Below are positions 25,046 to 64,000 of a DNA stretch of 64,000 nt, one piece after another. The stretch covers positions 6,882,001 to 6,946,000 of the forward strand of contig NC_135830.1 in assembly GCF_964213995.1 (NCBI RefSeq), read 5' to 3'. This stretch comes from Mustelus asterias (Eukaryota). The notes below the pieces were generated by a model. It was not told the origin of the DNA. It did not search any database and saw only the letters and a list, made by a program, of their open reading frames with translations. Positions within the stretch are counted from its first letter, which is position 1, and every line of letters begins with the position of its first letter. A program made the translations under genes and the position numbers.

Positions 25046-27491
25046 TTACATTTGTACTTTAAAAAACTTCCATGTTTTTTGGTTTACAAAAGTGTCGATA
25101 ACAGCATGTAAATCAACAGATCGAAGCATGTCTGATTCAATGTGCATGAGTGCCAGATGACTAGGTTTCTCATCGCTCATTGTTGAGCGCAAATAGATTT
25201 TGATCCTCTTCAGTGCCGAAAATGAACACTCACCTGAACAGTTAGTGATCATTAAGGACAGATAAATTCTAAAGCAAATGTATGTATTTGGAAACACCTC
25301 GTGCAGTCGATCTCTTGCCAGAGCTCGATACATCCCAGTGACAGTGACATCATCATCGGATTGTCCTTGAATGTACTTCTGAAAGTGGACGTGCTCTTCC
25401 ACAAAGGCCAAGTCAAAGTCGTCCGGATAAACTTGTATGAGGGTATTCGCTGCCTTTTTAAGTGCGTCGACATCAATATTGCAAATACGAGAAAGAAATC
25501 CAAATCGCTTGGACACAGATTTATATGCTTCAGTGCGTTTTTTAAGCTCTGCTGATAATTTGTCTAAGATCGGTAAGTACACGTTAATTTTGAAACTCTG
25601 GCGAGGTGAAAAATCTGTTGCCTGTGCTTTGTTTTCCTGGTACTAACTTTTCGCTTCCTTTGCGTTTCTTCTTTGTGAACTGATGTCGCAGTCTTTGCAA
25701 TGCCTTCTTGCTTAAAGTTCTCAAATGAGTCATTGATCCGGAGGTCTAAGATATAGGCCTCCAAAGACTGCAAAAGTCTCACGCCTTCGTTAAGATATAT
25801 TTCTGGGTTTTGTAAATTCAAGCTAGTTTTGTGGAATCGCTTCAAAATTGTTGCCCAAACGCTGAGAAGTATTCCATACTCCAGAGATTCCATCTTGCTC
25901 ACAAGACCTCTCGCTTCTTGTCGCGTGTTTGACTTTTCATCTGCATTGTCAGCAATGCTTTCCAATTGTGATTTCACTTTCTCGTATCCCTGATTGAGGG
26001 CGGCCGCAGCACTTGCGTGAGCAGACCACCGAGTATCACTAAGTCTCTTCACAACTGCAAGATTCTTTCCAAGCTCACCCACAAGTATTTCCCATCGGTG
26101 GGTTGAAGCACTGAAGAAATTGTACAACTGTTCAACAAAATCAAAAAAAGCAGCAGCTTTCGGAACACAATCCACTGCTGAATGACCGACAAGGTCCAAC
26201 GAGTGAGCAACGCAAGGAATATAGTCAGCTACTATATTTCTCTCCTGTATTTTAGCTTGAAGACCATTACACTTGCCACTCGTGTTGCAGGCGTTGTCGT
26301 ATGATTGACCTCTGCAGTTCTCTAAGTCTATTTTATCTGTTTCTAAAAACATCAGAATACTCTCGGCAAGTTGTTCACCACTGTGACCTCTGCAATTCAG
26401 AAATATGACGCATCTTTCAATAGGACCACTCTCACGCACATATCGAAAAATGCAAGACAGCCGATCCGCGTGTGAAATATCAGGGGATGAATTCACAGAT
26501 ATTGAAAACTATTTGGCTTCTTTGAGTTCCGAAATAATTTTCTCTGACACCTTTTGTCCAAGTATTTAAATCAGCTCATCGCATACTGTGGATGAAAGGT
26601 AGGAAACAGAGCCTTTACCCTTATTTCATTCATTTCAATATGAGTTGCCAAAAAAAGGATCGAATTGCGCTAACAATTCTAGTGTCCCTAGAAAATTGCC
26701 ATTGTTTGGTGAACCACTACACTCGTTGTGTCCCCTAAAGGCTAGTCCCCGCTCAGCAAGAAATTTAATTGTAGCAACAACCCTTTCCAGAAGTGCTTTC
26801 ATGTAATCACGTTCTGACTGGTATTGTCGAGTAATCAAGCGGTTTACACATTCAATACCTCGAGACCTTGTAGTGAGGGCAATGGTCGCATCCCAATGGC
26901 TTTGGCTGTTTTCATGACTTTCGAATCTTTGACTTGCATTTTTCCAGTCAGAGAAGCCATGCTTCGAAAAAGCATGGTCTTCACTTGAAAACAGTTTGCA
27001 GTTAAAACAGAATGCCTTACCTGTGCTTGGAGATTAGCACAGCCAACTTCTCCTGATTTTCTCGCCATTTGTAAGGGAGCGGTAAAACATGGACTTACTA
27101 AAGTAACGTTTCTGTTTAGCGTCATATTTGATAGACTTCACAACACTGGCATTCATGTTCCAACAGACTTCGCTCCCTGTCTTTAACCAGTATACGGTGA
27201 TGTCTTCTGTAATTTTGTCAGGCGGCAGGCCACGTGCCCAAATCACTCTCCATCGACTTCGACGACTTGTCTGCGATTTCTTCATCATCGGATCCGGAAT
27301 GAACTTCACGTTGCGAATCTTCGCCTACTTTTCCATCGTCCACATCACCGTCCACATCATCAAGTACTGCTTCATTTGCTGGCTTAAAAACTTGTCAAGC
27401 TTGCATGTATTCCTTCGTAGACTTTCTTGTACTCTCTTGGTCTCTTTCCTTTTTTGTGCTCTGCTTTTATGTTTGTATTCAATAGTAGCCA
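25046..27491 (-). pseudogene. hAT transposase pseudogene in several frames
   Basis: LAFRGH..NNGNFLG (DUF4371-like), GQSYDNA..SG, CVAHSLDL, SDTRWSAH, C-terminal dimerization SFSALKRIK.YLRSTM. Confidence 0.9.
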
Positions 27492-29064: not shown

Positions 29065-31714
29065 GTCTTCAAACTTACCCATCTCTCAGTGTCAGGAAAA
29101 GATACCTCAGCCCCATCCGTTTGTTCTTAAGCATTGACAGAAAACATTATCTCACATTTACTCTTACCCAAGTATTAGATGCTATTCTGCAAAATGTTCA
29201 GTTATGTCGACAGAGACAAGAATTGGCACAAATTTAAATTTATGATTCAAATGTTAGATCAATTTCTCTGCCGCATCAATAAGGGTTTCAGCCGAATTGG
29301 ACTTCCACAACACAGGTTCTGAAGTTCAATCAGACTGCACGGTTTGCCCTTCTAGACCATTCGTTTTTCTCCTGAGAGGACTTTGTGTACTGAATGTTAC
29401 CACATTCAGTTTATATTTGCAGAGGTCCCAGTTGGTCAACGGGGTATCAACATTATTAAAACTCAGTGTTCTGATTTTTCCGAATTCAATTTTATTGTTG
29501 AATGCGAACGGAACTGGGTATCAATCAAAATATTGAATATTTTTATCTTCACCTTTTCTGAGAAAACACACACAGCAAAATCGCCAGTGCTTTCTGCTGG
29601 CAGGAGGTATTTGGACAGTACCGGGGGGCGGGGGCGGCTGGAATATTGCTGCTCTCCCCTGTCTCATTCGCTGTAGAATGAGGAAGAGAGAATAATTACT
29701 GGGGATGTTAGAATGGAATAATTGAATGGATTTCTACTGGGTTCGAAGCAGACACAATTTAAGGCTAATCGTCGCAGAACACCCATTGCAGACACATGCA
29801 TGTCACCGGGAACCAGCTCTCCTATAATAGGTGCTGTCTCCCTTCAAGCCTTTCGGTGACTTGTCTGTAAACAAACATTCGGACTGTCCCGAAGCTGATA
29901 TTAGGTTTGAATTCCTGATGCGCTGTAACGAGAATACTTTCAATATCTCCCATCAGTTAATTTCACTGCTAACGTCAAATTCAATGTTCCAGTATCATTC
30001 AGAAGGGAAAGACCCCTTTACTGTCTCTGCTCAGTCAGACAGTCCACTCTTTGGGAACAGGAATCTTCTGTGATTCCTGTTCCCAAAGAGTTTCTAAAAA
30101 TTCACAACTTTGGCAACCATAATAATATATATCTTTGAAGCAATATAAGTTTGCAATCGATGTTAATATGATATTTCTGTTTCGATATTTATTCTTTTAG
30201 TTACATTTCCTCAATGTGGTTACTGGCCACGGTTGTGAGTCTGGACTTCGCCCCGACGCTGAACCCAACACGGTATTTCACTGCCCTCTGGTGGGGGTGA
30301 AATGGAACTACAAAGTGCAGCTTGCTCCCACTTGTGAGTCTTCGGGACTCAAGTTCTTGTTCAGCAATTTCCGATCTTGAATTCTGCTACGATTTTGTTT
30401 ATACCCTTTATTCAAATTTTAGACTGCACCTGGGTGAAGAATCTTTTTTGTTATGAGTCCATCTCCCACAGACAAATAGAATCCTTTCCCAGATATGCTA
30501 TCGCCCAGCCGCTGTGCTCAGCAGTTCAGACAGAAGAAGCGGTGAATTTGCAATATATCGATAACACGACATTTTGCTCCCTGAAAAGGGGAACATTCTA
30601 AACAAATCAATTCGGTCGCTTTCTAAGCAAAATAAACCAAATTAGTCTGTTAATCCCTGGCGCTATTCTGATTTATAACTCCCCCAATTTCTCCGACGAC
30701 TTGGTGTTCTCTCGACTTCGTTGTCTCCAGGATTTGAACAGAGACCTCGAGCAATGATTTCCGCAGATTTCGCATCGTTTTCCCAAATGCCTATCAACAG
30801 TAACAAAGTCAGTATCTAAAGAGCTCCAATTTAGATATCTGAGCTGCATTTTTGTCTTGGCATATGTTATAGTAAACCTTGAATCAACTCATCAGGAAAA
30901 TCCGAACGTGCATTGAAAACGATAGACGGTGCCAAATTCAAGCCCCAGCGTCATAAATTAAATCTGTATGTATGGTAGGCTTGTGATGACACAGAAGAGT
31001 CACCCCCCCCCCCTCCCTCACCACCCCCCCCCCATCCCACCCCCACACGCACACACACATACTGCAATCAGCTGAACAGAGCCCGTGTTCCCTCTCTCCT
31101 TCTTAATCTCTGACTCGTCCCATTCCGATTTACTGAGGGGGATTCAGTTAGAGACGTTTCTGATCATACTGGTGACGCTCTTGCATCGTAACTACTGGAA
31201 AACGGTCATCAAGCCGGATAAACATATTGATACATACAGATGGCAACTTAAGTAACAATCCGAAATATTCATAGAATAGAGAATCATAGAATCCCTACAG
31301 TTAACCGGTAAGTTCACAAGTTTCACATCTTTACCACACATTGCATTAACACATCGAGAACAATGGATTGATCGCAGCTCAGTAAATGAACCCTATCCAC
31401 TTTGCCTCCACACACCTTGTGACGAACACTGGAGTTTAAATTCGACGGACAGTTGTTTTAGGTTCCCCTTCAAATTGCAGAAAACACAGACAGGGAACTG
31501 ATCCCGATAGACGGTGCCAAATGTGCGTTCGTGAGAGTTTATTACCTCATTCAAACTCCTTCTCGGTACAGTCCCTGAGCTGTGGGAAATATGTTACACT
31601 TTTAGTGGCGCTGATTTGTTTATCGGGCTGTGATTCAGAGCAAAAAGCGGATTCTGTGAGTTAAAAGTAATTGATTGTCAGCGTTTGATTTGACGATCCT
31701 CTGGATTCTTACAG

Positions 31715-32003
31715 GACATTGTGGAGGAGACTCTGTTACACAGACAACGGCTGGAAGGAGATGATGTTCAGTTGTTCTGTAACTTTACAGATACAGCCAG
31801 CAACCCCGACCTATTTTGGTACCGTCAGTATTCCAGCGGACCCATGGAGTTTCTGCTGCAGAGGAATAGATACAGCTGAAAAACAGAGAGATTTCCAGGG
31901 GACCGATTCTCTGCCGAGTTTGATTTGTTGAAGAGCACTATCCCGCTGAAAGTGTCTAAAACAAAACTGAGAGACTCCGGGGTGTATTACTGTGCACTGA
32001 TCC
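31715..32003 (+). pseudogene. TCR alpha/delta-like V exon (V1), frameshift plus stop
   Basis: Acceptor AG 31713-31714; GDSVTQ / LEGDDVQLFCNF..LFWYRQY..EFLLQR..*..RFSAEFD..DSGVYYCAL; decayed leader (VTLLVALICLS) near 31590-31626. Confidence 0.88.
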
Positions 32004-32042
32004 CACAGAGGCATAGAGCTGCGCTGAACCTCCACAAAAACT
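32004..32042 (+). promoter_or_regulatory. 23-RSS of V1
   Basis: CACAGAG + 23 nt + ACAAAAACT. Confidence 0.9.
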
Positions 32043-34560
32043 CTCACAGCGTCACTCAGTACACTAATTTGGGAAGTTGATTGAATGATAGTTGAGTATT
32101 TATATGACGCCTTTCTTGATGTGCCACAGTGTGTTCACTGTCACTGTGTTAATGGACTGGACAAGGCACAGCAGCCAAGTTGACCCCCGCATTATCCTTC
32201 AAACAACACCATTTTAATGAATAACATGTTTTAGGACGTTTATTGTTGGGTAGTTACTGACTAGAGCAATTCCACAGCTTTTCATAGAAATAGTGTCCTT
32301 GAGATCGATAACCCCCTTCCGAAAGGGCAGTCGGTGCCCCCGATTTAACATCTTATTCGAAATCTAAGACCTCTCATAATTCACCATTACCCTCGGACTG
32401 CACTGCCGCGTATGAATGGATCCTGGGTCTGGAGTCTCTGGAGAACGACTGGAATTTTGAAAACGTCTGATTCATAGGCGATAGAACGAACAACTGAACC
32501 TCGCCTGACAATTGGTGTTTGTAGATTAACACTTGTACTGCTAATTCTGAGACACTTTCACCGTTTTGACAATGAATGTATAGTTTATATTTACACGTGC
32601 AGATAGATTAGTGTAATGAATGGCCTCCTTCTGCACTGTAGAATCCTATGATTCTATGATTCTATGGGCGTTGTGGATCTCTATCTGAGAGCGTTGTCAC
32701 ACTGAGCCTCATAGTGGAGTGAAGAGATTTGCGAGTCCCATAATTTTCTGGATACTTTGAGTTTGTGATCAATAGTAACCAAAGTCTTTCGGCATGGAAA
32801 GAACTAATGCCCCTCCCCACATCTCATTCTCTCTCTCACTCTCTTTAAACACACACATACGCATACATACACACACACAGACAGACAAAAACACACTGTT
32901 TTCTGATCAACGCTATTAATTAGAAACATTGGCTGAATATTTTCGACCAACTAACTTGTGGTATTGGACCATGGAGTACAATGGTTTATACAGGTCACTC
33001 TCTAACTCACCTGTGCTATATCGTTGGCAACTTAGAAACATAGAGATCAGAAGCAGCGGTAGGCCATTCGGCCCACAGACCAGTTGCATTATTCATTTTG
33101 AACACGGATGATCATCAAATTTAATATCCTGAACCCCTTTCCCCTATATCCCAAGATCCCTTCAGACTTAGAACCATAGAACCATAGAAAATTACAGCTC
33201 AGAAACAGGCCTTTTGGCCCTTCTTGTCTGTGCCGAACCATTTTATGCCTAGTCCGACTGACCTGCACTTGGACCATATCCCTCCACACCCCTCTCACTT
33301 CTGGAGCAATATCTAATTTCTTCGTGAAAACAGACAAAGTTATAGAAATATAAAAAGCAGAAATTTATCAGCAGTTGCTTGTCCGATATATACTGTCGTT
33401 CACAGTGCAATGTCACATCGCAAAATTATTTCCTGTAATTTATGGCTGACACCTGTGAAAGCGGTGAACTGTAGTTTCATGCAGTTTTGTTCAAACATAA
33501 TGTCTTGTAGAGCCACCTATTGGAATGTTCTCTGTAAACACATTTAGTCTCCAATATTGCATCATGATGTTACTGAAATGTTATTATGCCAGTTAATAAC
33601 GGATTTTACTGCTTTCATGTTATTATTCCTGCTGCTTATGGCTTTCTCGTTGTTTTGTTTTTGTCACGTTTCCTACTTAATATTAATTACAATATTATTT
33701 TTCCTCGTTTGCTGGCATTCCAACGTAACTAGTAGAGTACATATTGCTGTGTATGAATATATGGACGTCGCTTAATCGACTCATAGATCAACAACTGATG
33801 AGTTTGGATTATCGTGTCTCCCGTTTTCCCGAAAGTTCAGAGTGTCGAAAATCTAATTTCTCCACGTCTCGCTGCTTCAAAGTGTCAGAGACCCTGGTTC
33901 CTTCCCGGCCTTGCCTGACTGTCAGTGTGGAGTTTGCACGTTCTCCCGGTGTCTGCGTGGGTTTCCTCCAGGTGCTCATGTTTCCTTCCACAGTCTTTCA
34001 TCAGAATGGCTCGGACATTACACTAAAGAAAGAGAATCGTCAGGGTTTAAAATAAAGATGAAATTTGCTCTCTTGTATGCGTTCATTGCAGTACAATAGT
34101 AACAATATGTGCAAGAATAAAGCGACATAATCGTGCAGCAACGCCGTTCAGAACGTTGAGATTTCGATGGTTTTCCCGTAATTGGCCAGTTAGCTCAGAT
34201 CACCACCAAAAGGAGCTGCCTCACCAAGGTAGTGGGTTTACTGCAGCGGGTACGGGAACAATAGCATTGAGGTTCTGCTGCTGATCTAGTATTCCAGGGA
34301 GGCAAGCAGCTCTCCGAAATCAATGATGGATATGGATCAATACCGCGATAACACCTCCAGTGTTTTCCGTTCAGGGAATTGCTTGCAAACGATGAAAATT
34401 AGAATAAAGAGGAATTTTCCATCAAACAGCCCACATCCAGCGCCACAGAAAGAGAGAATTGGGGCTTGCTGTCCTTTGTAATATTGTCCTGTTTGTATTA
34501 ACAGTTCATAATCCATGTTACAAGTTGAATTTATTGAGAGGCAGTGGGAATGCCTTTGCT

Positions 34561-34925
34561 GGTTTTTGTACGGGCTAGGCGGCACGGTAGCACAGTGGTT
34601 AGCACTGCTGCTTCACAGCTCCAGGGACCTGGGTTCGATTCGCGGCTCGGGTCACTGTCTGTGTGGAGTTTGCACGTTCTCCTCGTGTCTGCGTGGGTTT
34701 CATCCGGGTGCTCCGGTTTCCTCCCACAGTCCAAAGATGTGCGGGTTAGGTTGATTGACCATGCTAACATTGCCCCTTAGTGTCCTGAGATGCGTAGGTT
34801 AGAGGGATTAGCGGGTAAAATATGTAGGGATACGGGGGTAGGGCTTGGGTGGGATTGTGGTCGGTGCAGGCTCTTTCTGCAATGTAGGGTTCTATGATTC
34901 TATGAACTGTGCCTCTGCAAATGTG
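34561..34925 (-). promoter_or_regulatory. Split 23-RSS of V2
   Basis: Heptamer CACATTT (34925-34919) + 15 nt | SINE | 8 nt + perfect nonamer ACAAAAACC (34569-34561). Confidence 0.8.
34578..34903 (+). mobile_element. HE1-type V-SINE inserted in the RSS spacer of V2
   Basis: Full head to ctatgatt tail, lying between heptamer and nonamer. Confidence 0.92.
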
Positions 34926-35364
34926 CGGGGATCAGCGCACAGTGATACATGGCAGAGTCAGAGACACAGACCCCGGTGATATTTAACAGAGCTGTTCTCT
35001 TGTTTTTGTCCAAATCAGCAGAAAACAGGTCAGGGAAATCTAGAGACTTATCCCCCTATCTGTTGCCGTAACTCCTCAGTCAATATCTCGGAGCTTCTCC
35101 GGGATAGTGGATGTACCAGAAGAGAGTTGGAGCAGAGTATTTTGTTGTGTAACTGCAGTTTAATATTACTACCTGTCCTTCCTGAACAGTTAATTCAAGC
35201 GGCTCCTGGGAGACTAGATATTGGCACTGGTTCCTGCAACAACATATGGAATGTGTGAGAAATCGGTGAGTAAATATAATCCGTGAAACACACACTGAGG
35301 ATTTGAGCTCAGACTCACCGGGCAGCATGTCCATTATTATCAAGAAAGCACACAGGGAACACAT
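34926..35364 (-). pseudogene. TCR alpha/delta-like V gene (V2): leader exon 35364-35319, V exon 35233-34926; frameshift and two stops
   Basis: MCSLCAFLIIMDMLP|gtgagt; VSQEP..VQEGQVVILNCSYTT..PTLFWYIHYPGEAPRY*LR..FSADLD..DSAMYHCAL. Confidence 0.9.
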
Positions 35365-36227
35365 GGTTCGTGATTGGACATGAACATGTTTCAGATGTGC
35401 TGGTGCTTCTAGTCTTATATCTAAAAATAAACTCAGATCAGAGGCATCTTGCAATTATTGCGAAATTGTTCCTCAGTGCCGCGATTGGCTTGTCTCCCTG
35501 AGATGATGTCAGCTGTTGCCCAATCATCTAAATGTTTTATACGGCTGAACCACACCAATCACATTCCACCCCTGGTTGCTTTTACCTGGCGTTCTCTCTC
35601 TTCCTCGGTTTCACTTTGTCACTCATTCTGTCTCTACCTCGGTTGAACTTGCCTTCCTTCGAACTCTTTCCTGAGGAAGATCATTCTCTCTAATGAAAGT
35701 GAAAGATCAAATAAATGTTTTTAAATCCGGTATTATTAAGGGGCATGAGCATAAATGAAAGGTTACTGTCTTAATTACACTGGGCGAACGTTGATACCCA
35801 ACTTCATGTCGAGATGCAGTTCCAGTGGGACTGCTCTTGTACCGTTAAGGTACTTAATTAACCCAGTCAATATTTTGTACCCAGAAAATGTGAAACAACT
35901 GAGTGTGCCTATGACATTATTTCACTTTAAAAACGTGTCCCCTGACAGCGAGGCATCTGATACAGAAAGGTTAAGTGTACAAATAGATGATGGCATTCAC
36001 TTGGAAGATCTGTGGGTTGTGTGAATGGCATCGCAAAATGGTTGGATTTGATCCAGAAGTAATCTGACCGCCAAAAGTCAAATTTCTCGACAGTGGCAAT
36101 CATTGACCTCAGTGAGGGAAAACCATTCAGATGAGGCACAATGTCACGTTCACTATCTGTGCATTTTTTATGAAATTCAACTCCATGTGCTTTCCTGACA
36201 CCAAACTCTTGACTATCGACCTGTGGC

Positions 36228-36266
36228 AGCATTTGTATGAGGCCCAATAGACCCTCGCTCATTGTG
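36228..36266 (-). promoter_or_regulatory. 23-RSS of V3
   Basis: CACAATG + 23 nt + ACAAATGCT. Confidence 0.85.
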
Positions 36267-37864
36267 GTTCTCAGTGCACAATAATACACGGCGCTGTCTG
36301 TCATCTTCAAATCTTTCATGGACAAGTGAAAAGTGTTTTGTGCTTGCATGTGATTCCCGCTGAAGAGCTCAAGGCCGGGGGCCGTCTTCTTGTACCCGTA
36401 ACTATCGGCTCTGAGCAGATACTGAGGAGCTTGGAGTGAAGACTGCCGATACCAGAACAGGCCATATACTCTAGCTAAACTCTGTACAGGGTAACTGCAG
36501 GGTATTGCTGAACCTTCACTCCCTGTTGCTTCAACTCTTGGTTCTGATTGGGACACTGAATCTCAATTACTCATCTCTGAATATAAACAATAGAAGTCAT
36601 GTTGTGGAGATGACGGCTTTGGACTGGGGTGAACACGGTAAGAAGTCTCACAGCACCAGGTTAAAGTCCAACAGGTTTATTTGGTAGCAAATACCATAAG
36701 CTGTCGGAGCACTGCTCCTTCGTCAGATGGAGTGGAAATGTGCTCTCAAACAGTGCAAACAGACAAAATCAAGTTGCAGAATACTGATTAGAATGCGAAT
36801 CCTACAGCCAGCCGGGTCTTAAAGGTACAGACAATGTGGGTGGAGGGAGCATTAAACACAGGTTAAAGAGATGTGTATTGCCTCCAGACAGAACAGCTAG
36901 TGAGATTCTACAAGCCCAGGAAGCAAGCTGTGGGGTTTACTGATAATGTGACATAAATCCAACATCCCGGTTTAGGCCGTCCTCATGTGTGCGGAACTTG
37001 GCTATCAGTTTCTGTTCAGCAACTCTGCGCTGTCGTGTGTCGTGAAGGCCGCCTTGGAGAACGCTTACCTGAAGATCCAAGGCTGAATGCCCGTGACTGC
37101 TGAAGTGCTCCCCACAGGAAGAGAACAGTCTTGCCTGGTGATTGTCGAGTGGTGTTCATTCATCCGTTGTCGTCGTGTCTGCATGGTTTCCCCAATGTAC
37201 CATGCCTCGGGACATCCTTTCCTGCAGCGTATCAGGTAGACAATGTTGGCCGAGTTGCAGGTACTGTGTACCTGGTAGATGGTGTTCTCACGTGAGATGA
37301 TGGCATCCATGTCGATGATCCGGCACGTCTTGCAGAGGTTACTGTGGCAGGGTTGTGTGGTGTCGTGGTCACTGTTCTCCTGAAGGCTGGGTAGTATGAG
37401 GTTGCGTGGTTGTTTGAAGGCAAGAAGTGGGGGTGTGGGGATGGCGTTGGCGAGATGTTCGTCTTCATCAATGAAATGTTGAAGGCTCCGGAGGAGATGC
37501 CGTAGCTTCTCCGCTCTGGGGAAGTACTGGACGACGAAGGATTCGCATTCTAATCAGTATTCTGCAACTTGATTTTGTCTGTTTGCACTGTTTGAGAGCA
37601 CATTTCCACTCCATCTGACGAAGGAGCAGTGCTCCGAAAGCTTGTGGTATTTGCTGCCAAATAAACCTGTTGGACTTTAACCTGGTGTTGTGAGACTTCT
37701 TACCGTATAAACAATAGACACAGGATGGATTAGAAGTAGGATGAAGATGATAATCACGCAGAGACAGGAAGGGCGAATTGCACAAAGATCGCAATACTTT
37801 TTAGGAAGTTTGATTGACTTTTAACCAGGGTAAAAAGCAAAATGAAGAACATTTTCACTACCAT
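36267..37864 (-). pseudogene. TCR alpha/delta-like V gene (V3): V exon 36576-36267 with one TGA in the leader part; putative leader exon from 37864; Penelope in intron
   Basis: MSN*DSVSQSEP...IPCSY..LFWYRQSSLQAPQYLLR...FHLSMKDLKMTDSAVYYCALR; leader MVVKMFFILLFTL. Confidence 0.88.
36595..37705 (-). mobile_element. Penelope-like retroelement fragment with GIY-YIG endonuclease remnant and inverted terminal repeats; 13-bp TSD
   Basis: NIVYLIRC..C..WYIGET.Q..RQRMNEH; TSD TATAAACAATAGA 36582-36594 and 37706-37718; hammerhead at 37611-37647. Confidence 0.9.
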
Positions 37865-41833: not shown

Positions 41834-44245
41834 ATGCATGGGCCAGCGAATGGACCATTTTATGCTATTTATTATCCGATGCTCGCTGCTATTGGTGTCC
41901 CAGGTAAGAAAGGAATCCCCGTTAAATTATTCATTTGTACGGTGGTGAAAAGGCCTCATTGTATTTTCGTGTGTTCGGGTGCATTGCTTCCATTTGCATT
42001 ATGGTGTGTGGCAATACGCAGTTCAGTATGTTGCACTTCACACTTTTTGAACAACAGTTTATTAGAATGCAGGAATATGAATTATAACTGTAACATTGTA
42101 CACACGCTATATTATTCAACAGTTCTACTGAACCAGAGAAATGTACATCAAGCAGAATTACGAAATGTTTGGTCAAAGAGGTACGTTAATTCAATAAATC
42201 GTAGATAAGGTAAGAGAGAGGAAAAATGAGAATTTGAAGATGGGAATTCCAGGCAAAAGAGTGTAGGCAGCTAAAATGATCACTGAAAGCGATGGATCGT
42301 TAATGTCTGGAATTGACAAGAGGGCAGATTTAGATGTACGATAGCCTCTCAGATTGCTTTAGGGCTGCAGCATATTACAAGGATAGGGAGTGGCGAGGCT
42401 GACGAGGCTAACGACTTAATGGATCATTGTGGAGGGAATACTGAAACTGAGCTGTAACTAGGCAATTGTCCAAAATAGATCAGCAAGCGTAGTGATGATG
42501 GCTGAATGGGTGTGGCATGAGTATAAGCATTGGGAACAAATCTTTTGGGTCGGTTAGAGTTCACTGAGGCTGCAGGAACCTATTCCTATGGTCGTGAGCC
42601 GAGATATAATAAAGGATTTTAATCGAAGTTACGCTAAGGCACAGGCGACACCATGGACTGTATTAGAAAGTAAATGTAAGTTGCGTTCGTGCTTATTTTT
42701 ATTTATTGGTCACAAAGTAGACCTACATTAACACAACAACGAAGTTATTGTGAAAATCCCCAGTCCCCATACTCTGGCGCCTGTTTTGATACACAGAGGA
42801 AGCATTTGGCATGGCCAATGCACCCAAGCAGCACATCTTTCGGATTGAGCGAGGGAGCCAGAGCACCCAGAGCAAACCACGCAGCCACGGGGAGAACGTG
42901 CAGACTCCACACAGACAGTGACTCAAGCCTGTAATCAAACCCAGGTCCCTGACGCTGTGAGGTAGCAGTACTAACCACTGTGCCACCTGCCACTTATGGT
43001 CAACTTAGGAACGTGGCATCTGCAATTTCAGCCCACTGTCAAAACATCGATATTGTAAACAGTTTCCAGCCTCAGATGATGGTTAGCCACAAGAATTGAA
43101 TCAGTTGTCAGAGAGTGGTGTTTGTGACAGGGACTGATTAGTATATTCTATGAATTGACAAATGTTTGATCCAGCAGTGGCTGTGGAACAAGTAGCAATG
43201 GCTTTGGAATAATTGAAATCTGGAGGTGGCAAATAGACGGATCAGGAGGGTTTCAGCAACTGATTGGATCAGGGAGTAGTTGTTTTTTGCTGTCCACTTG
43301 GTAACGTCTTTCTCCTTTTATTCTCTTACAGCTAACTTGGTGGCGATCATCATCCTATCCCGTGGACGGTGTGGACTCTCCCAGTGCATCACTTACTATC
43401 TAGTGGCGATAGCGGTGACTGATTTTCTTGTCATGGTTACTGCTGTTATCCTCAACCGGATAGGTGGCATTTATTTTCGGTACAGTGTCCTATCTACCAC
43501 CCCCGGATGCGCTGTCAGCACTGTGCTGGTGTATGCAACCCGGGATGGTTCAGTCTGGCTGACAGTGGCTTTCACCTTAGACCGTTATGTGGCCATCTGC
43601 TGTCAGAGACTAAAGGCCAGATACTGCACTGAGAAAACAGCATTGCTGGTTATAGGACTTGTCTGTACTCTAAGCTACGTGAAGAACATTCCTTTCTATT
43701 TCACCTATCAGCCCTTGTACATACTGGACGGGGTACCCTGGTTCTGTGATATTATGTCCAGCTATTACTCTTTGCCCACCTGGCAGGCCTATGACTGGCT
43801 GGACCATATATTAACGCCCTTTCTCCCATTCCTCCTCATTCTGATTCTCAACGCCCTAACCGTGAAGCACATTTTAGTGGCCAGCAGAGCCCGCAGGAGG
43901 CTCCGGAGCGCCGAGAATCATGGAGATGCAGAGATGGCAAACCGCAAGAGATCCATTGTGTTGCTGTTCACTATCTCGCTCAGTTTCCTCCTCCTGTGGG
44001 TCACATACGTCGGACATTTCCTCTACGTGCGGATTACGGGTGAGGCCTACTTCACCGGCCTGGATTTCAATGACCCGCACTTCATGCTTCAAGAAACTAC
44101 AAACATGCTGCAGTTACTCAGTTCCTGCAACAATACCTTTATCTATGCAGTATCCCAAACCAAGTTCCGAAATGAACTGAAGAAGGTTCTGCTTTTTCCC
44201 TTCTCCATTTTCACCAGTTGTTTTAAGTTGCACGGTATTGTATGA
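41834..44245 (+). CDS. GPR139-like class A GPCR, 2 exons (41834-41903, 43332-44245), 327 aa, intact
   Basis: GT..AG phase-1 intron joins YYPMLAAIGVP to ANLVAIIILSR; SVWLTVAFTLDRYVAIC, 7 hydrophobic segments, NTFIY; AATAAA at 44351. Confidence 0.9.
42700..42990 (-). mobile_element. V-SINE variant with a different 3' tail, intronic
   Basis: Head ggcacagtggttagtactgc and V domain shared with HE1; tail ends ...gtgaccaataaataaa. Confidence 0.75.
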
Positions 44246-45282: not shown

Positions 45283-46614
45283 TTACAATTGTATTTTCAT
45301 CAAGTCCAATATTACTTTATCTCTCTCATCCTCCGCATACAATTCTGCCTCCACTTCTCGTCGGGTTTCCTCCAGCACCTCGTCGTCCAGTATGGGTTGG
45401 TATTCCTTGTCCTTTTCCTCCTCACTCGCGGCGAACATCATCGGTTGAGTCGGTCGTGACCCTATCGATTCCAAGGTGGTCATCACCCGTGCGATGAGAC
45501 ACTTTACAATGCCAATTCCAATACTTATACACAGAACCAAGAGTATGGCATATAATCCCACATTCATTAACCAACCAAGCCATCCTGACAGGTCCCATTC
45601 CCCTAATCCTTTGCCCTCTCTCATCGACCCTAGTTGCTGGTCAATTTGGTTCAGGTAATTAGTGAGATTAGTAGTGACCTCATCTAGTCCCAGTATGCAG
45701 TGATCCTTCACTATGGCACACAGGCCTCCTTGTCGAGCCAGCAGGTAATCCAAGGCATATCTATTCTGCTGGGCATACAGCCTGAGTTTCTCTAGTTGGG
45801 CGGTGATGACCTGGAGGGCCCCTCTTGTAGCGTTCCCCAAGGCGGTAAGGCCGCAAGCAATGTAATTACGATTATCTGCAGCCGTTCGCCCTGGGACGGC
45901 TCCAAAGGAAAAGAAACCCGCCGCTCCATAGCCAGCAGCCTGACCAGGAGTGGGGGCAGTTATTTCCTTGTAGTCAGTGCAAACCTCCTCCGATAACTGC
46001 CGCTCTGGCCTTCTATGGCGATGACGTGGAGGCCCCCAATGGCTCGGACAAGGAACCACGCTGGGAAGTGGTCCCTGTTGCCACTGAACGGGGGTAAGGG
46101 TAGGACAAATAATTGATGGCCGTACCATTGAAAAAGAAGAAATACCCTGTTTCAGTGTACATGGTCTCTGAACACTTTTGCTATGTCCCGTTGGCTCGAA
46201 CCTGGTGATAGGTATCATCGGTTCCCAAGAACAGGGATCTGGAACCTATACAGGATGGTACCGTCAGTCTTCCTTCTGCATTAATCTGTACTATCGTAAA
46301 GTCCCTACCGTAAGCATGAAGGTGGGTGCCATTCATATAGCCACAAATTAGATTTTCCCCTTTTCGCAAAGCTATGCAGGTCGAATTCAAACACTTACAG
46401 ATTACCTAATCTCTCTGGGCTTCGTACCTACATTTATGCTGATGGCAATACTTACTCAGGCAGAGGTGATCCTGGCACACATAAACTGTGGAGCATCCCC
46501 AACCCCTCCCTTCTTACAACACGGAACACCAAGCCGATGAGCTTGACACTTGACCACCACCTGGAGGGGACAAAAACATAACGACAAGCATAACAACCAC
46601 AGAGTAAAGAGCAT
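45283..46614 (-). pseudogene. env: broken SU, open TM region
   Basis: Signal MLFTLWLLCLSLCF from 46614; basic cluster RHRHRR; ISD QNRYALDYLLARQGGLC; membrane anchor; acidic tail. Confidence 0.88.
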
Positions 46615-46680
46615 GTCACCCGGTACCGCCTCTCATACTAATCATCCGTAAAATCCTCCTCCCTGTCATCCTCAATTCTT

Positions 46681-48010
46681 TTAGGCTTCGGCTTGCCCGA
46701 TCAATTTACAGTGGTGGAGGTGGACCCAGGCATCGCGAACCGCCACCTTAGCCGCTGTAGGGGTGGTTAACAAGACTTGGAATGGGCCCTCCCACCGCGG
46801 CTCTAAATGCTTGCGACTCCAATTGTTGATAAGGACAAATGAGCCCGGTTTTACTTTAGTGGGAGTGGTTAAGGTAGGTGGCTTACCGTGAGCAGCCCGG
46901 ACTTGTGAGTGGAGATGGCGCAAAGAGTGGGTAAGGGAGAGGATATATGAGGTCATTTCATCCGTCATATGATGGAAATGAACGGGCGTCGTTGCCCATC
47001 ATCCCAAGGGTTCTGCAGGGGTCGACCATACAAGACCTCCGCGGGCGAGAGATGGGACGGTCCTGCAGGGGTGGTTCATATTTGAAATAAAGCTACAGGG
47101 AGTAGTCTGACCCAAGACAGATCTGAAGTTTCTACAAGTTTAGCCAGCTTGGTTTTGAGCGTTTGATTGGAACGTTCGACTACATCAGCAGCTTGGGGAT
47201 GGTGAGCGCAATGGAGCTGTTGCCGAATATTCAGCTGGGTGCACAGCTCCTTATTGACCGATGCAATAAAATGTGGGCCATTGTCAGAACTCAGGCAGGT
47301 CGGGACGCCAAATCGAGGCACAATTTCGCGCAGTAAAATCCTGACGACAGTTGTCACTTTGTTATCCGATGTAGGATACGCGTCAAACCACTTGCTAAGG
47401 ACATCCACGATTACTGAGACATATTTATACCCCTGACATCTCTGCAACTCAATGTAGTCCATCTGCTGGGTGTCAAAGGGGCCTGCCGGCAGGGGAGTCT
47501 TACCCAGATCACAGGGCGCACTCTTGCCCGGATTATGCTGTTGGCATATCAAACAGCGGAGGCTTAGACTTTGTGCCATGTCCTGTAGGCGAGGATGCCA
47601 CCAGGAAGTGAGGAGCAAATCACTAAGAGACCTTGCACCACAGTGAGTTGCAAAGTGTACGCAATCAATTACCCAGAGAGCCAAAGTATCAGACATACAG
47701 TTTGGTTGGCAGGGGTGATCCAGACTCCGGAGTCTGGGTCCACCCTACAGCCCAATACATTCCATAAATCTTCATCGCGAGGCAAGGCTTGCTGCTGCAA
47801 TCGAAGATCATCATCGATGGTTGGCATGGATTTCTCAGAGGCAGGGCCATCTGCGTCCAGACTTTTCTCCTGCATCATCATTCGGGGCACAATCATCTGA
47901 CAAGTTTTAAAAACCAATTTGGCCGCCTCATCTGCCCTATGGTTACCTAAAGTGACAGGGTCTTTACCAGCGGTATGGGCGGCGCACTTAATCACTGCAA
48001 GGGCTGCTCT
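46681..48010 (-). pseudogene. pol 3' part: RNase H C-terminus and integrase
   Basis: KCAAH..GNHRADEAAK; H..H..C..C zinc finger; QMDYI, SDNGPHF, VERSN (DDE); EPRWEGPFQVLLTTPTA. Confidence 0.9.
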
Positions 48011-48526
48011 TGAGGCGGGTGAGGCGGAAGAGGTGTAGTTGCCCCCGTCATCCAATGGTGTAGATCCTTATCTGTATCATTATCAGTGACCTTAATGCCA
48101 TCCATCATGTTCCCTATCTCAGAAGCCTCACAATCCTCAAGAGACAGTTTCTTATGTAAGCATTCCCTTTTCAACACCTCAACTGGTTTTGGAGTCCCTC
48201 CCTCCATTAATTCTATTCCCAACTTAACAGCATTGTCCTGCCAGCTGGATAGGAGACTCTGCTCCTTTAACTCCTGACAATGTTGTAACCATAACCCTAT
48301 AAGCTCCTTCGTCTTCCTTCCCATATTCTTTGAGCCAAATTTGTTGCTGCGCAGCTTTAACAAGGTGGATATTTCTGGTCCCTCCTGGGGGCCATTCAGA
48401 TGGCCCTAATTTATGGGTCAATGCCCCCGACAATTGTCTCAATTTGGTGGCTTTATCCGGATATTTCTCGCAAAACATTTGTAAGGCTGAATTTGTCTGA
48501 TTGGTTGTATCCAAATAGTTCCCCAT
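48010..48526 (-). pseudogene. gag N-terminus (matrix-like), frameshifted
   Basis: MGNYL start after the leader, WPPGGT motif; fuses directly to RNase H end. Confidence 0.7.
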
Positions 48527-49537
48527 TTTAAAACAAGCTGTTGTATTCACTCAATACCACGGTAAATTCAATTCGAGCTCTAACAATTTTATGACCACCT
48601 CACCAGTTCCCTGGTGATCCTCGCCGATCAACAGCGACCCTCAGTGAATTACGGTTCTGCTCAATTATTCACTGACTACTTATTTTCTACCTCACCGTTT
48701 TCACAGTGACCCAAATAACAACCGACCTGGAGTTGCACAAGCTGATTAAATCACGGGTTATTCCGTCTGGGCGGCTGGTGACAACAAACGAAAGGTCAAC
48801 AAACACCAGAATGACAGGGCAGAGGAAAACCAAGTGGTTGTATCAATGGTACTCACGCACTTGGATGGCCAATTCCTCAGTCCCGGACTCGGTGCTGCTC
48901 ACTCTAATGCCGTTTTCTGCCGTCTGCCGACCGTTGGAATCCCACTTCTGACACCAAATGATAATCTCAATTTACACTCTATCCAGCTTGGTTCGACAAC
49001 AAATTGTTTCAACTCCAGATGTTGAATCAACATCTTTATTTCACTTAGTTCATTATGTTACGACGGCGGGTCAGTCTTCCTTAATGATGCAGCCTAAAAA
49101 AGCCTGCAGCCCTCAGGGGAGACTGAACACACTTCTTTGTTTTGGTACAACACAAATACATTTTTCCAAAAAAAGCAAGCGACCCGATAGCCTACCAGCT
49201 ATAGCCCCAATATACTCATTACCAATCAGAGGATAATAATCCTTCATGCACTCCTCGTGCTGACCTTCACTGGCCAGTCACATTCTCTGCACGTATGCTG
49301 CAACACAGAACACTTGTGTGGTGATAAGTGATCGCAGCTGCATTCAGCTTATCATAGCAGGCAGTTGTTTGCAGAACAAGGCCATACCATCACATGATCT
49401 CACCCAACCGCCAGGAGCCAGGCAGTAGTTTATACTCACTTATACTATAATACTGTAAGCATTAGATTATTAATAGTTTCTACAATCAAGGAAGACATCA
49501 CTATCCAAGCATCACTACACATGTATCCACATCCACA

Positions 49538-56743: not shown

Positions 56744-57839
56744 TGGCATAAACAGTGCCGACACTATATTAGAGTGTCAGCGAGTGCTGGATCTAATATA
56801 ACGTAATTCTGTTTTGTATAAAACAAGAGTTTAGTGTTTAATTCAGCGAGACATTTCCTTTTAATTTGACCAAAATTTTGATCCAGATCTTGGAGATATC
56901 TGTGTCAGTGGAAATAATAAAACCAACCCCATTGCCACACAGATTTCATCTTGTGTCACAATCTTTACCATCAGCTCTTTGCAGCCTATTGCTCAACTTC
57001 ACCATCTGTGTTTGTTCTTGGCCTATTGCCCATACGACGTTTCCAATACGGATAGAAATCGAGAAAGCTCATTCCACTGATTCTGACAGAGCTGTTTTCG
57101 ATCAGGTTTGTTAAACGGATTCTCAAAAAGATTAAATCTTAGTGCATCGAAGCCGTGACCCTGAAAACTCAGAATTGTAACCACTTGACCATCAGAATCT
57201 CATCTTCCTGATTCTCCCAGATATTCATTACAGGAATGAGCACAGTGTCAATTACCCACAGTGACACTCTTCTTTCTGTCCTATGCACGCTATTAAGCTT
57301 TAAAATTATTTGTATTTCCACACGAGTTTCCAGCGTGACGAACGCCGAACTGTGATCAGCTGATGTTGTTCAACAGATTTACAGCAGTAAGGTTTATAAC
57401 AGGTCGATGCTCACATTGTTCTTTGAATGTAGTGAATTACAGTGAAACTTTGACAGGAGAAACCAGCCGGACAATGCAAATGTGAATTGCTGTGGGTAAT
57501 TGAGGGGATTGTGGAATGGGTCTGGTTATTCTCCCTGCTGTTTGGACTGGCACAAGTACCAGTACCGTTAAGGAAGTAATTTCAGCTTCTCTTAATTCCA
57601 GCGCTGTACGAGAGCAAAAAACGATCATTCCCTGACAGGGAATCGATCCCTCGTCAACCTGCGATAATTATTTCACCTCACTGTCGATTTCATGTTGCAG
57701 CTGACATAATCAGTGCTCTCCTGAGCTGAAGGAGGGTTGGCGTTCCAGCTCAACATGGCATTTTGTCCGACAAACATGTCTTAGATACTTTAAAAACTGT
57801 TGACGTTGAGAGATGAGGTTGGAATCCTTGCAACTATCT

Positions 57840-57910
57840 TCCTTGGTAGTCCAGTGGTTAGGTTTCAGCGCTTTGACCGCCGCAGCCCGGGTTCTTTTCC
57901 AATCAGGGAA
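57840..57910 (+). pseudogene. tRNA-Glu-body pseudogene (anticodon TTG)
   Basis: tccttggtagtccagtggttagg..cagcgctTTGaccgccgcagcccgggttc...cagggaa. Confidence 0.7.
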
Positions 57911-58854
57911 TCAAAATTGATTTCTCTGGCACGGGGCATGAATTAAGAGGAGCTGAAATAACTTCCTGATAGGACACGGGAGATTTTCAAAAACACGGAG
58001 AAAATATCCGTCCCTTTCCACAACCACGTCAATTTCCCGCATCAATTTATATTAACCTTGCCTCTGCTGGTCCCTCCTGTCAAATTAGACAACCATACAT
58101 TCTATTGCATTGAGTCTGAACCCAAATAAAGTGTTCGATCGAAAGTATTTCATGAAGATTAAATTAAATCAAAAGTTTTAACAACGAACCCACGTCCTCC
58201 AAAAAGCTGCCAGCTTGCATGAAGTGCCTTAGGCCAGTGATCAACCTTACTGACATAAACATTTGTTGACAGATCTGGATTGCCATTCAACAGAATCAAT
58301 GGAGTAGGATTGGATCACATGTCCCATTGAGCCTCCTCTACCACTGAATAAGTTCAAGGTGGGTCTATAGACTAAGTACCGATTTCCAACACGACCCAAT
58401 AGCCCTTCATTCTCTCAGAGTCTCGAGATCTCTTCATCTCATCCGTCAAATATCTCCATCGACTGAGAGTCCATAGACATCTGTCGTATGGAGTTACACA
58501 GATTCACAAGCCTTTGAGTGAAGAAATGTCTCCTCACCTCAGTCCTAAATGGCTGACGTTATCCGGAGAATGCGAACCGTTCCAGACGCTTCTGCCAGGA
58601 AACAAACAGCCTCCAGCATGTAGATAAAAACACATTACTCTGAGTGCTGAAATCTGAACCAAAAAAGGAAACTGCTGGATAAAGGCCGCAGGTCTGACAG
58701 CAACGGTGGAGCGAGAAGGGAACTACGGCTTCGCGTCTGGATGTATCTAACAATGACACTTGTCCATGAAAAACAGGTCTATTGTGTTTGTGAACTGAAG
58801 TGAGGCAGTGTGTAAACTCATGATAGTCAGCTAATTGCAGCAGCGAATGTCAGC

Positions 58855-63136: not shown

Positions 63137-64000
63137 CTACCAGATCACTGTTTTAATGAACTGCACAATTCCAGTAAATGGAAGTTTCACCACATTCTTC
63201 AGATCCTCTCTGAATTGTGCCTGGGTCACGGCATAAATGCATGTGTTGGTGCAGCAACTCAGGAGTTGCAGCATAAATCCCAGTTCCTGCACAAATTGGG
63301 GCAAAATTGTACTAATTAATCTGATATGCTCCAATCGGTTACAAAACGAATAGATGAGGAACACTGACCATAACAAGATGAAATTTCCCGATATTGCAAA
63401 CAGTAAGATAATGGATTTCCTTCTCTTTTCTATCTCTGGGTCACTTTGACTTACCCCACTCTTGTGGCTCCGAAGTCTCCTGCGGACTTTGCTCGACACT
63501 GAAATGTGTTTAACGGTTATAACATTGAGCAGCAGAATCAACAAGAATGGAACAAATGGAGTTAAAATATAGTGTACAGTTTCAACTGCTGCCCACACTC
63601 CTGATGCTCTAACATCAGAATGTACATAACAAAACCAAGGATTATTTGTGAAATAATATGTACCCCCACACATGAAGTACCAGAAAGTGTTCTTTACACT
63701 GAACACCACACTCACTGTTCCGAGAACCACAGCTGCCGTTTTCTCGGTGCAGTGTTTTATTTTCAGTTTCTGACAAGCAATGGCCACGAAACGATCAAAG
63801 GTGAAAGCGACAGTGAACCAGACAGAACAATCAGTGATTGCGTAAAGTAGGACAGCATGGATATTACACACTCTCATGTGAGCCATGAACAGAAATTGAT
63901 GAAGAAAACGGATAGGAATTTGTCTCAATATGAGATCCATTATAACGACCAGTAGATCTGCCGTTGACATGGAAATTAAGTAACGTGTGACACATTTGGA
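63137..64000 (-). CDS. Second GPR139-like GPCR, exon 2, partial (continues beyond window)
   Basis: Open frame SKCVTRYLISMSTADLLV..SVWFTVAFTFDRFVAIAC..NPWFC..ILTPFVPF..QLLSCCTNTCIY. Confidence 0.9.
   Translation of the reverse strand, partial: SKCVTRYLISMSTADLLVVIMDLILRQIPIRFLHQFLFMAHMRVCNIHAVLLYAITDCSVWFTVAFTFDRFVAIACQKLKIKHCTEKTAAVVLGTVSVVFSVKNTFWYFMCGGTYYFTNNPWFCYVHSDVRASGVWAAVETVHYILTPFVPFLLILLLNVITVKHISVSSKVRRRLRSHKSGVSQSDPEIEKRRKSIILLFAISGNFILLWSVFLIYSFCNRLEHIRLISTILPQFVQELGFMLQLLSCCTNTCIYAVTQAQFREDLKNVVKLPFTGIVQFIKTVIW

What the first reader, a model, noticed from the sequence alone, without database searches (positions are those of the whole stretch)
31590..37864. Three disabled TCR alpha/delta-like V segments in opposite orientations, each retaining a 23-RSS
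Seen: V1 (+) faces V2 and V3 (-). They are mutually divergent, all have stops or frameshifts, and no D, J or C is recognisable in the window. The ORF track captures them only partly. Inference: an orphon or the degenerating edge of the TRA/TRD locus; they could still be RAG targets or gene-conversion donors.
Basis: partly seen in the sequence, partly recalled or inferred. Interest (0 to 1): 0.7.

Follow-up and report, generated by a model that had tools for sequence, protein, structure and literature searches.

The report
Dead TCR segments beside TCR-delta cassette
Three broken shark T-cell-receptor gene pieces, copied several times along one scaffold, lie about 200 kb in front of one of 19 T-cell-receptor delta gene cassettes in this assembly; none can make a protein and one has lost its cut signal, but another keeps a normal signal, and an equally broken relative stands joined to such a cassette, likely by the immune recombinase, so dead pieces are likely still cut now and then to no use.

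Summary
The three V segments are real TCR alpha/delta-type pseudogenes, but only V1 keeps a normal 23-RSS: V2's heptamer is mutated and a SINE splits its spacer, and V3's RSS is drifting. They are not an orphon. They lie on a 20-Mb scaffold among IgM clusters, 203 kb upstream (no gap) of a TCR-delta D-J-C cassette and 11.5 Mb from a TCR-alpha J-C; this scattered, mixed-orientation layout is published for sharks (PMC12227049). The block occurs five times (96-99.9%), shares old lesions and shows no sign of selection, so it is most likely duplication debris. Two wider points: the assembly holds 19 open TCR-delta C exons with their own J segments (this scan noted that before on other DNA), and one cassette carries a V1-family pseudogene joined to D-delta with a RAG-type junction, while an unjoined 98% sibling has the same two lesions and V1's heptamer and nonamer. 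So dead V segments can be RAG substrates; gene-conversion use has no support. Expression and germline versus somatic origin of the join are untested.

The parts
31270..31299 (.). SINE-type simple tail where the V1 leader exon and promoter should be
   Evidence: alignment with 5 relatives, which carry the leader exon here; SINE label by likeness to the tail at 34880-34904, family name not tested
31300..31309 (+). V1: last 8 nt of the leader exon and GT donor
31715..32003 (+). V1 V exon (TRAV/TRDV type), 14-nt deletion after 31753, TGA at 31877-31879
   Evidence: 60% identical over 78 aa to the V of white shark LOC121270132
32004..32042 (+). V1 23-RSS, CACAGAG-23-ACAAAAACT, the family's usual heptamer and nonamer
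34561..34577 (-). V2 displaced nonamer and end of spacer
34578..34904 (+). SINE inserted into the V2 RSS spacer
   Evidence: repeated elsewhere in the window
34905..34927 (-). V2 mutated heptamer (CGCACAT) and first part of spacer
34928..35233 (-). V2 V exon, 1-nt deletion 9 nt after the acceptor, TGA 35080-35082, TAG 35056-35058
35319..35364 (-). V2 leader exon, intact, donor GTGAGT
36228..36266 (-). V3 23-RSS, weakened (CACAATG-23-ACAAATGCT)
36267..36576 (-). V3 exon 2: open V domain, TGA at 36563-36565 in the second leader part
36582..37718 (.). 1.1-kb retroelement-like insert in the V3 leader intron, 13-nt target-site duplication, 169-nt inverted ends
   Evidence: Penelope-type label is by eye (GIY-YIG-like motif recalled), Pfam gave no match
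37819..37864 (-). V3 leader exon, donor weakened

Best explanation
V1-V3 are three broken TCR alpha/delta V segments inside a shark antigen-receptor complex, present in five copies of a duplicated block and likely decaying without selection; only V1 keeps a normal RSS and would likely be an occasional, unproductive RAG substrate for the TCR-delta D segment 203 kb downstream. Mechanism: V arrays, IgM clusters and TCR-delta D-J-C cassettes were multiplied together by segmental duplication with inversion (shown: copies and orientations), spare V copies took indels, stops and retroelement insertions (shown), and the RSS survive or decay at about the neutral rate (inferred from small counts). A 23-RSS in front of a D-delta 12-RSS can still be joined whatever the state of the V (inferred from one joined dead relative and from the 12/23 rule, established knowledge); for V1 this would delete the IgM cluster and NAR-TCR V in between and give an out-of-frame, leaderless product. 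Loss of V1's promoter side would likely lower its accessibility (inference).
For: Lesions mapped against open relatives. Open relatives with RSS among fetched non-copy loci: 12 of 25 for V1, 18 of 25 for V2, 17 of 26 for V3. Four copies 99.5-99.9% alike over about 10 kb and a fifth at 96% that already has V1's 14-nt deletion, V2's frameshift, SINE and CAC loss, and V3's TGA and insert. Window versus fifth copy, three exons pooled: 9 of 207 synonymous and 24 of 645 non-synonymous sites differ, plus 3 changes to stop; V3's RSS differs at 2 of 16 positions, the fifth copy being closer to the family. IgM VH-D-D-J-C, NAR-TCR V, D-delta, 4 J and C-delta follow with no N gap in 6.852-7.198 Mb. Joined relative at C71:11,023,770: V trimmed 4 nt, D trimmed 3-4 nt, 1-nt overlap, both RSS gone; its unjoined sibling at C71:4.704 Mb (98.4% over 2,020 nt) has the same TAG and 1-nt deletion and the RSS CACAGAG-23-ACAAAAACT. 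Same scattered layout in white shark chr27, 8.2-17.1 Mb, with pseudo and mixed-orientation V rows (PMC12227049 Table S1).
Against: No join of V1, V2 or V3 themselves was seen. The neutrality test rests on 36 differences, and V1 alone shows 6 of 67 synonymous against 7 of 209 non-synonymous, which looks constrained. V1's RSS is unchanged in all 5 copies, though that is expected about half the time at 4% divergence. The joined relative kept its leader, V1 did not, so the analogy is imperfect. Two copies (4.80 and 10.91 Mb) are 99.8-99.9% alike over several 10-kb samples and may be two haplotypes of one place.
Confidence: 0.8

Rival explanations
1. V1 is a retained decoy or deleting signal (like human delta-Rec, recalled) whose joining removes or inactivates the neighbouring IgM and TCR-delta cassette.
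For: V1's RSS is the family consensus, faces D-delta in deletional orientation and is unchanged in 5 copies; a dead relative has been joined to D-delta.
Against: For the three other near-identical copies and the fifth copy no C-delta lies on the side V1 faces: C-delta hits on C71 are only at 7.14, 11.04 and 12.27 Mb. No 12-RSS J-like acceptor was found in 56 kb behind C-delta. Retention is compatible with neutrality.
Confidence: 0.08
2. V1-V3 serve as donors for somatic gene conversion of rearranged TCR V genes.
For: Exons stay 76-86% identical to open relatives, with exact runs of up to 41 nt; AID acts on shark TCR alpha (PMC5931798, passages).
Against: No sign of selection; many open V segments already exist; the passages seen in PMC5931798 describe point and tandem mutation, and mention gene conversion only for birds, some mammals and lampreys.
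Confidence: 0.04
3. The segments are an orphon, outside the TCR/Ig region.
For: No D, J or C in 64 kb; neighbours are tRNA genes, GPCR genes and retroelements; the nearest TCR-alpha J is 11.5 Mb away.
Against: IgM and TCR-delta D-J-C within 230 kb, TCR-alpha J-C on the same scaffold, V-type segments over 15 Mb.
Confidence: 0.03
4. The copy numbers and the V-D join are assembly products (haplotypes laid side by side; a junction read from one lymphocyte).
For: Some pairs are 99.6-99.9% alike; the D side of the join is 100% identical to the C90 cassette over 661 nt, and no unjoined V-to-D precursor was found in 150 kb behind the sibling; 4 of 7 joins are single.
Against: 19 C-delta exons fall into 14 distinct sequences and their 10-kb flanks differ by up to 14%; one junction is shared by three cassettes 96-99% alike; contigs of public runs show several C-exon variants, three states at one codon in one run (that run may be the assembly's own sample). 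A somatic origin would still mean RAG joined a dead V.
Confidence: 0.12

Closest known systems
Elasmobranch antigen-receptor complex, AgRC (Flajnik et al. 2025, PMC12227049; read: main text parts 1-2 of 8, Table S1 whole, reference passages; supplementary PDF not read)
   Same: TCR alpha/delta V exons, some pseudo and in both orientations, scattered between IgM clusters over many Mb, with NAR-TCR V and TCR-alpha C on the same chromosome. V1's best named match is the V of LOC121270132, which Table S1 labels 'TCRa VVCtm'.
   Different: The paper describes TCR alpha/delta as a translocon, and Table S1 shows no species with more than one TCR-delta C model; here 19 C-delta exons with their own J, and two TCR-alpha J-C sets (32 J on C71, over 110 J on C546), neither with a C-delta in the stretch read upstream.
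TCR-mu locus of marsupials and monotremes (PMC7615758; read: abstract and Introduction)
   Same: A TCR-delta-derived chain kept in repeated V-D-J-C clusters, with a germline-joined part.
   Different: TCR-mu is a separate unlinked locus with VH-like V and a fully joined, used V exon; here the cassettes are TCR-delta among IgM clusters and the joined V is broken.
Germline-joined shark Ig clusters (recalled; no paper read here)
   Same: Coding-joint-like V-D fusions in inherited DNA.
   Different: Here the partners are TCR V and D-delta, and the V was already disabled.
Human delta-Rec / psi-J-alpha deleting elements (recalled)
   Same: Non-coding element with an intact 23-RSS upstream of TCR-delta D-J-C.
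   Different: No downstream acceptor found, and no sign of selection.

Membership tests
TRAV/TRDV gene segment | V-set domain with both cysteines and the conserved tryptophan, ending at Y(Y/H)CAL | tested here: met
   read directly in all three; V3 matches PF07686 at 8e-12
TRAV/TRDV gene segment | Closer to TCR alpha/delta V than to IgH or NAR V | tested here: met
   V1 92 bits to the white shark TCR-alpha model V against 37 to VH; V2 56-57 against 33; V3 48 against 45, so V3 is weak by score, though its full-length single-domain PDB matches are TCR alpha chains. No tree was built.
TRAV/TRDV gene segment | Split leader exon and phase-1 intron | tested here: met
   V2 and V3 leaders present, V1 remnant with donor; relatives complete
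TRAV/TRDV gene segment | 23-spacer RSS at the 3' end | tested here: met
   present by descent in all three; normal only in V1
TRAV/TRDV gene segment | Linked 12-RSS J (or D) and C of TCR alpha or delta | tested here: met
   D-delta, 4 J and C-delta at 7.117-7.142 Mb; 32 J and C-alpha at 18.37-18.43 Mb of C71
Functional V gene | Open frame from leader ATG to RSS with intact splice sites | tested here: not met
   all three broken
Functional V gene | Found rearranged in transcripts | not testable with these tools
   no RNA holder listed
Orphon | Outside the main locus, no D/J/C in cis | tested here: not met
Non-rearranging VJ-type Ig gene (UrIg-like) | V and J (FGxG) in one exon, no RSS | tested here: not met
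   exons end at CAL and an RSS, no J motif
NAR-TCR V or supporting V-delta | NAR-like V with D and J, or leaderless supporting V | tested here: not met
   27-39% identity only to such V; families carry leaders
Elasmobranch AgRC | IgH clusters and TCR alpha/delta on one chromosome | tested here: met
Elasmobranch AgRC | PSMB5 and UrIg2 linked; IgW and IgNAR present | not tested
   no search made
RAG coding joint (C71:11,023,770) | Breakpoints within a few nt of both coding ends, both inner RSS lost | tested here: met
RAG coding joint (C71:11,023,770) | Present in germline DNA | not tested

The most novel reading that the evidence does not exclude
This shark keeps TCR-delta as many Ig-style D-J-C cassettes, and RAG acting in the germ line joins whatever 23-RSS lies upstream, dead V segments included, so pseudogenes such as V1 are active agents that delete and retire cassettes and neighbouring IgM clusters over evolutionary time.
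Probability: 0.35. Interest if true: 0.72.

Novelty: new variant of a known kind. Interest (0 to 1): 0.4.

Why it matters
The three segments alone are ordinary debris of a published layout. Their setting matters more: a TCR-delta locus split into many cassettes departs from the single-translocon picture for conventional TCR genes, and a coding joint on an already dead V shows that RSS-bearing pseudogenes are not inert. If germline, such joins give a dated record of RAG activity at a TCR locus and a mechanism for birth and death of cassettes that PCR on sperm or muscle DNA can test.

Tried and rejected
Pattern search for a J with a strict 12-RSS in the genome: 0 matches (too strict, J were later found by script). 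Pfam DUF1968 for C-alpha: 0 of 17 candidates. Protein searches with V3: none among 49 longer candidates, 1 weak turtle hit; no shark repertoire sequence reached. Sequencing runs: no RNA holder listed, so nothing on expression. Contig depth is no copy number and was not used. My first C-exon regex caught only 5 of 19; redid it by tblastn. The 44-54 kb pairwise identities are spoiled by simple repeats and were dropped; one search gives 95.5-95.7% there. One of 19 cassettes (C3311) ends before its D and is left out of the 18. Deiss 2019 and Ott 2021 (nurse shark TCR-delta locus) are not held, so I could not check whether they report extra C-delta genes or germline joins. Paper searches listed nothing on multiplied shark C-delta; only listings were seen for most hits.
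Full report
Observation. Six-frame reading shows three V-set exons at the stated places, V1 on + and V2, V3 on -, and no D, J or C in the window. V3 matches Pfam V-set and, among full-length single-domain matches, TCR alpha chains in the PDB. V1 is 60% identical over 78 aa to the V of white shark LOC121270132, labelled 'TCRa VVCtm' in Table S1 of PMC12227049. The organism is taken to be a shark or ray from these matches and from the Ig cluster layout.

Lesions. Its RSS equals that of 12 of 25 fetched relatives with open exons and is the only strict 23-RSS in the window (1 against 0 in 30 shuffles). V2: 1-nt deletion, two stops, heptamer CAC changed to CGC and a 327-nt SINE in the spacer; 18 of 25 fetched relatives are open with a good RSS. 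V3: open V exon, TGA two codons before it where relatives have a glycine codon, a 1.1-kb insert with a 13-nt target duplication in the leader intron, a weakened donor and a weakened RSS; 17 of 26 fetched relatives have no stop in the matched exon. So 'each retaining a 23-RSS' holds for V1, weakly for V3, not for V2.

Place. The window is G000:C71:6,882,001-6,946,000 of a 20.4-Mb scaffold. A V3 query gave 1,513 first-look candidates, 150 scored, from 4.5 to 19.4 Mb of C71 and on many smaller contigs; C1-set exons lie on the same pieces and those read on C71 are IgM (by likeness of layout and recalled motifs). Downstream of the window, with no N gap in 6.852-7.198 Mb, come an IgM VH-D-D-J-C cluster (7.061-7.077 Mb), a NAR-TCR V with D, a supporting V-delta, VH-like V segments, D-delta (7.117 Mb), four J and C-delta (7.138-7.142 Mb). 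TCR-alpha J-C lies at 18.37-18.43 Mb (32 J) and a second set on C546 (over 110 J in the 90 kb read). The block is therefore inside the antigen-receptor complex. PMC12227049 states that TCR alpha/delta V exons occur between IgH clusters and its table shows pseudo and mixed-orientation rows in white shark.

Duplication and drift. The V1-V3 block recurs at 4.80, 10.91 (inverted) and 13.76 Mb at 99.5-99.9% and at 14.68 Mb at 96%. Flanks are mosaic, 94-99.8% to the window, which fits real duplication; the 4.80 and 10.91 Mb blocks are 99.8-99.9% alike in four of six sampled stretches that could be scored (98.1% and 93.3% in the others) and could be haplotypes. The 96% copy shares V1's deletion, V2's frameshift, SINE and CAC loss, and V3's TGA and insert, but lacks V1's TGA and V2's stops and keeps V1's leader region. 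Between it and the window 9 of 207 synonymous and 24 of 645 non-synonymous sites differ, with 3 changes to stop: near neutral pooled, though V1 alone (6 of 67, 7 of 209) looks constrained and counts are small. V3's RSS changed at 2 of 16 positions in that time. An unchanged 16-nt RSS is expected with probability 0.5-0.7 at 2-4% divergence.

TCR-delta cassettes. A C-delta query found 19 C exons, three on C71. All 19 first exons are open with splice sites, in 14 distinct sequences; each has at least one J with 12-RSS within 10 kb, and flanks differ by up to 14%. Public contigs show several exon variants, with three states at one codon in run X1, which may be the assembly's own sample. Earlier notes of this scan report the same 19; I had the count before reading them. 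Six paper searches listed nothing on this, but the two key nurse shark papers are not held.

A joined dead relative. Of 18 cassettes whose D was reached, 11 keep both RSS and 7 have something joined to D: a supporting V-delta in 5 (three junction types, one shared by three cassettes), an IgM D in 1, and a V1-family V in 1. In the last, at C71:11,023,770, the V ends 4 nt short, D starts 3-4 nt in, with a 1-nt overlap. Its unjoined sibling at 4.704 Mb (98.4% over 2,020 nt) has the same TAG and 1-nt deletion and the RSS CACAGAG-23-ACAAAAACT, so the V was broken before the join (inference from shared lesions). The three sister cassettes (C90, C110, C111) are unjoined and the D side is 97-100% identical to them, so the event is recent. 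No D-delta or C-delta lies in 150 kb behind the sibling. Germline origin is likely, not shown; either way RAG is the likely cause.

Mechanism and verdict. Shown: identity, lesions, position, copies, the state of each RSS, the joined relative. Inferred: neutral decay, and occasional unproductive joining of V1 to the D-delta 203 kb away, dampened by loss of its promoter. Not supported: orphon, conversion donor. Untested: any use in lymphocytes. The three segments are ordinary members of a published arrangement; the multiplied cassettes (noted before by this scan) and the coding joint on a dead V make the setting a new variant. Interest 0.4. Papers seen: PMC12227049 (parts 1-2 of 8, Table S1, reference passages; supplementary PDF not read and may bear on C-delta counts), PMC5931798 and PMC10322711 (passages), PMC7615758 (abstract, Introduction); others as search listings only.

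Noticed in passing
L214:9420-9900 (G000:C71:11,023,470-11,023,950): V1-family pseudogene joined to D-delta with a RAG-type junction; unjoined sibling with the same lesions at C71:4.704 Mb (L244).
   Followed up: yes
L224, L225, L239, L231, L232: Supporting V-delta joined to D-delta in 5 cassettes: one junction shared by C119, C96 and C436, separate ones in C850 and C401; C850's J-C side is 99.9% like the unjoined C71 12.27-Mb cassette.
   Followed up: partly
L228 (G000:C138:213,324-223,323): IgM VH and first D joined to TCR D-delta, upstream of J-delta and C-delta.
   Followed up: partly
L095-L101 and L122, L205-L212: Two different TCR-alpha J-C sets (32 J on C71; over 110 J on C546); no C-delta or V found in 124 kb upstream of the C71 J cluster.
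   Followed up: partly
window 43280-44245 (+) and 63173-64000 (-): Single-exon rhodopsin-family GPCR genes (Pfam 7tm_1); many more, some broken, at C71:4.57-4.66 Mb.
   Followed up: no
window about 45283-48550 (-): Endogenous retrovirus remnant in several broken frames (Pfam integrase rve and ENV coat matches); the stretch recurs in the duplicate blocks at about 95.5%.
   Followed up: partly
window 1816-23058 and 57839-57912: Eight tRNA or tRNA-like genes (Asn, Tyr, Glu, Leu, Gln) scattered among repeats.
   Followed up: no
window 25046-27324 (-): Broken hAT-like transposase frames (weak DUF4371 match; family label recalled).
   Followed up: no
L214 region, G000:C71:10,998,799-10,999,230: IgM VH exon with an in-frame insert of about 40 codons in FR1.
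   Followed up: no
L274 (G000:C90:1,131,315-1,131,556): Several 23-RSS in a row behind a supporting V-delta.
   Followed up: no
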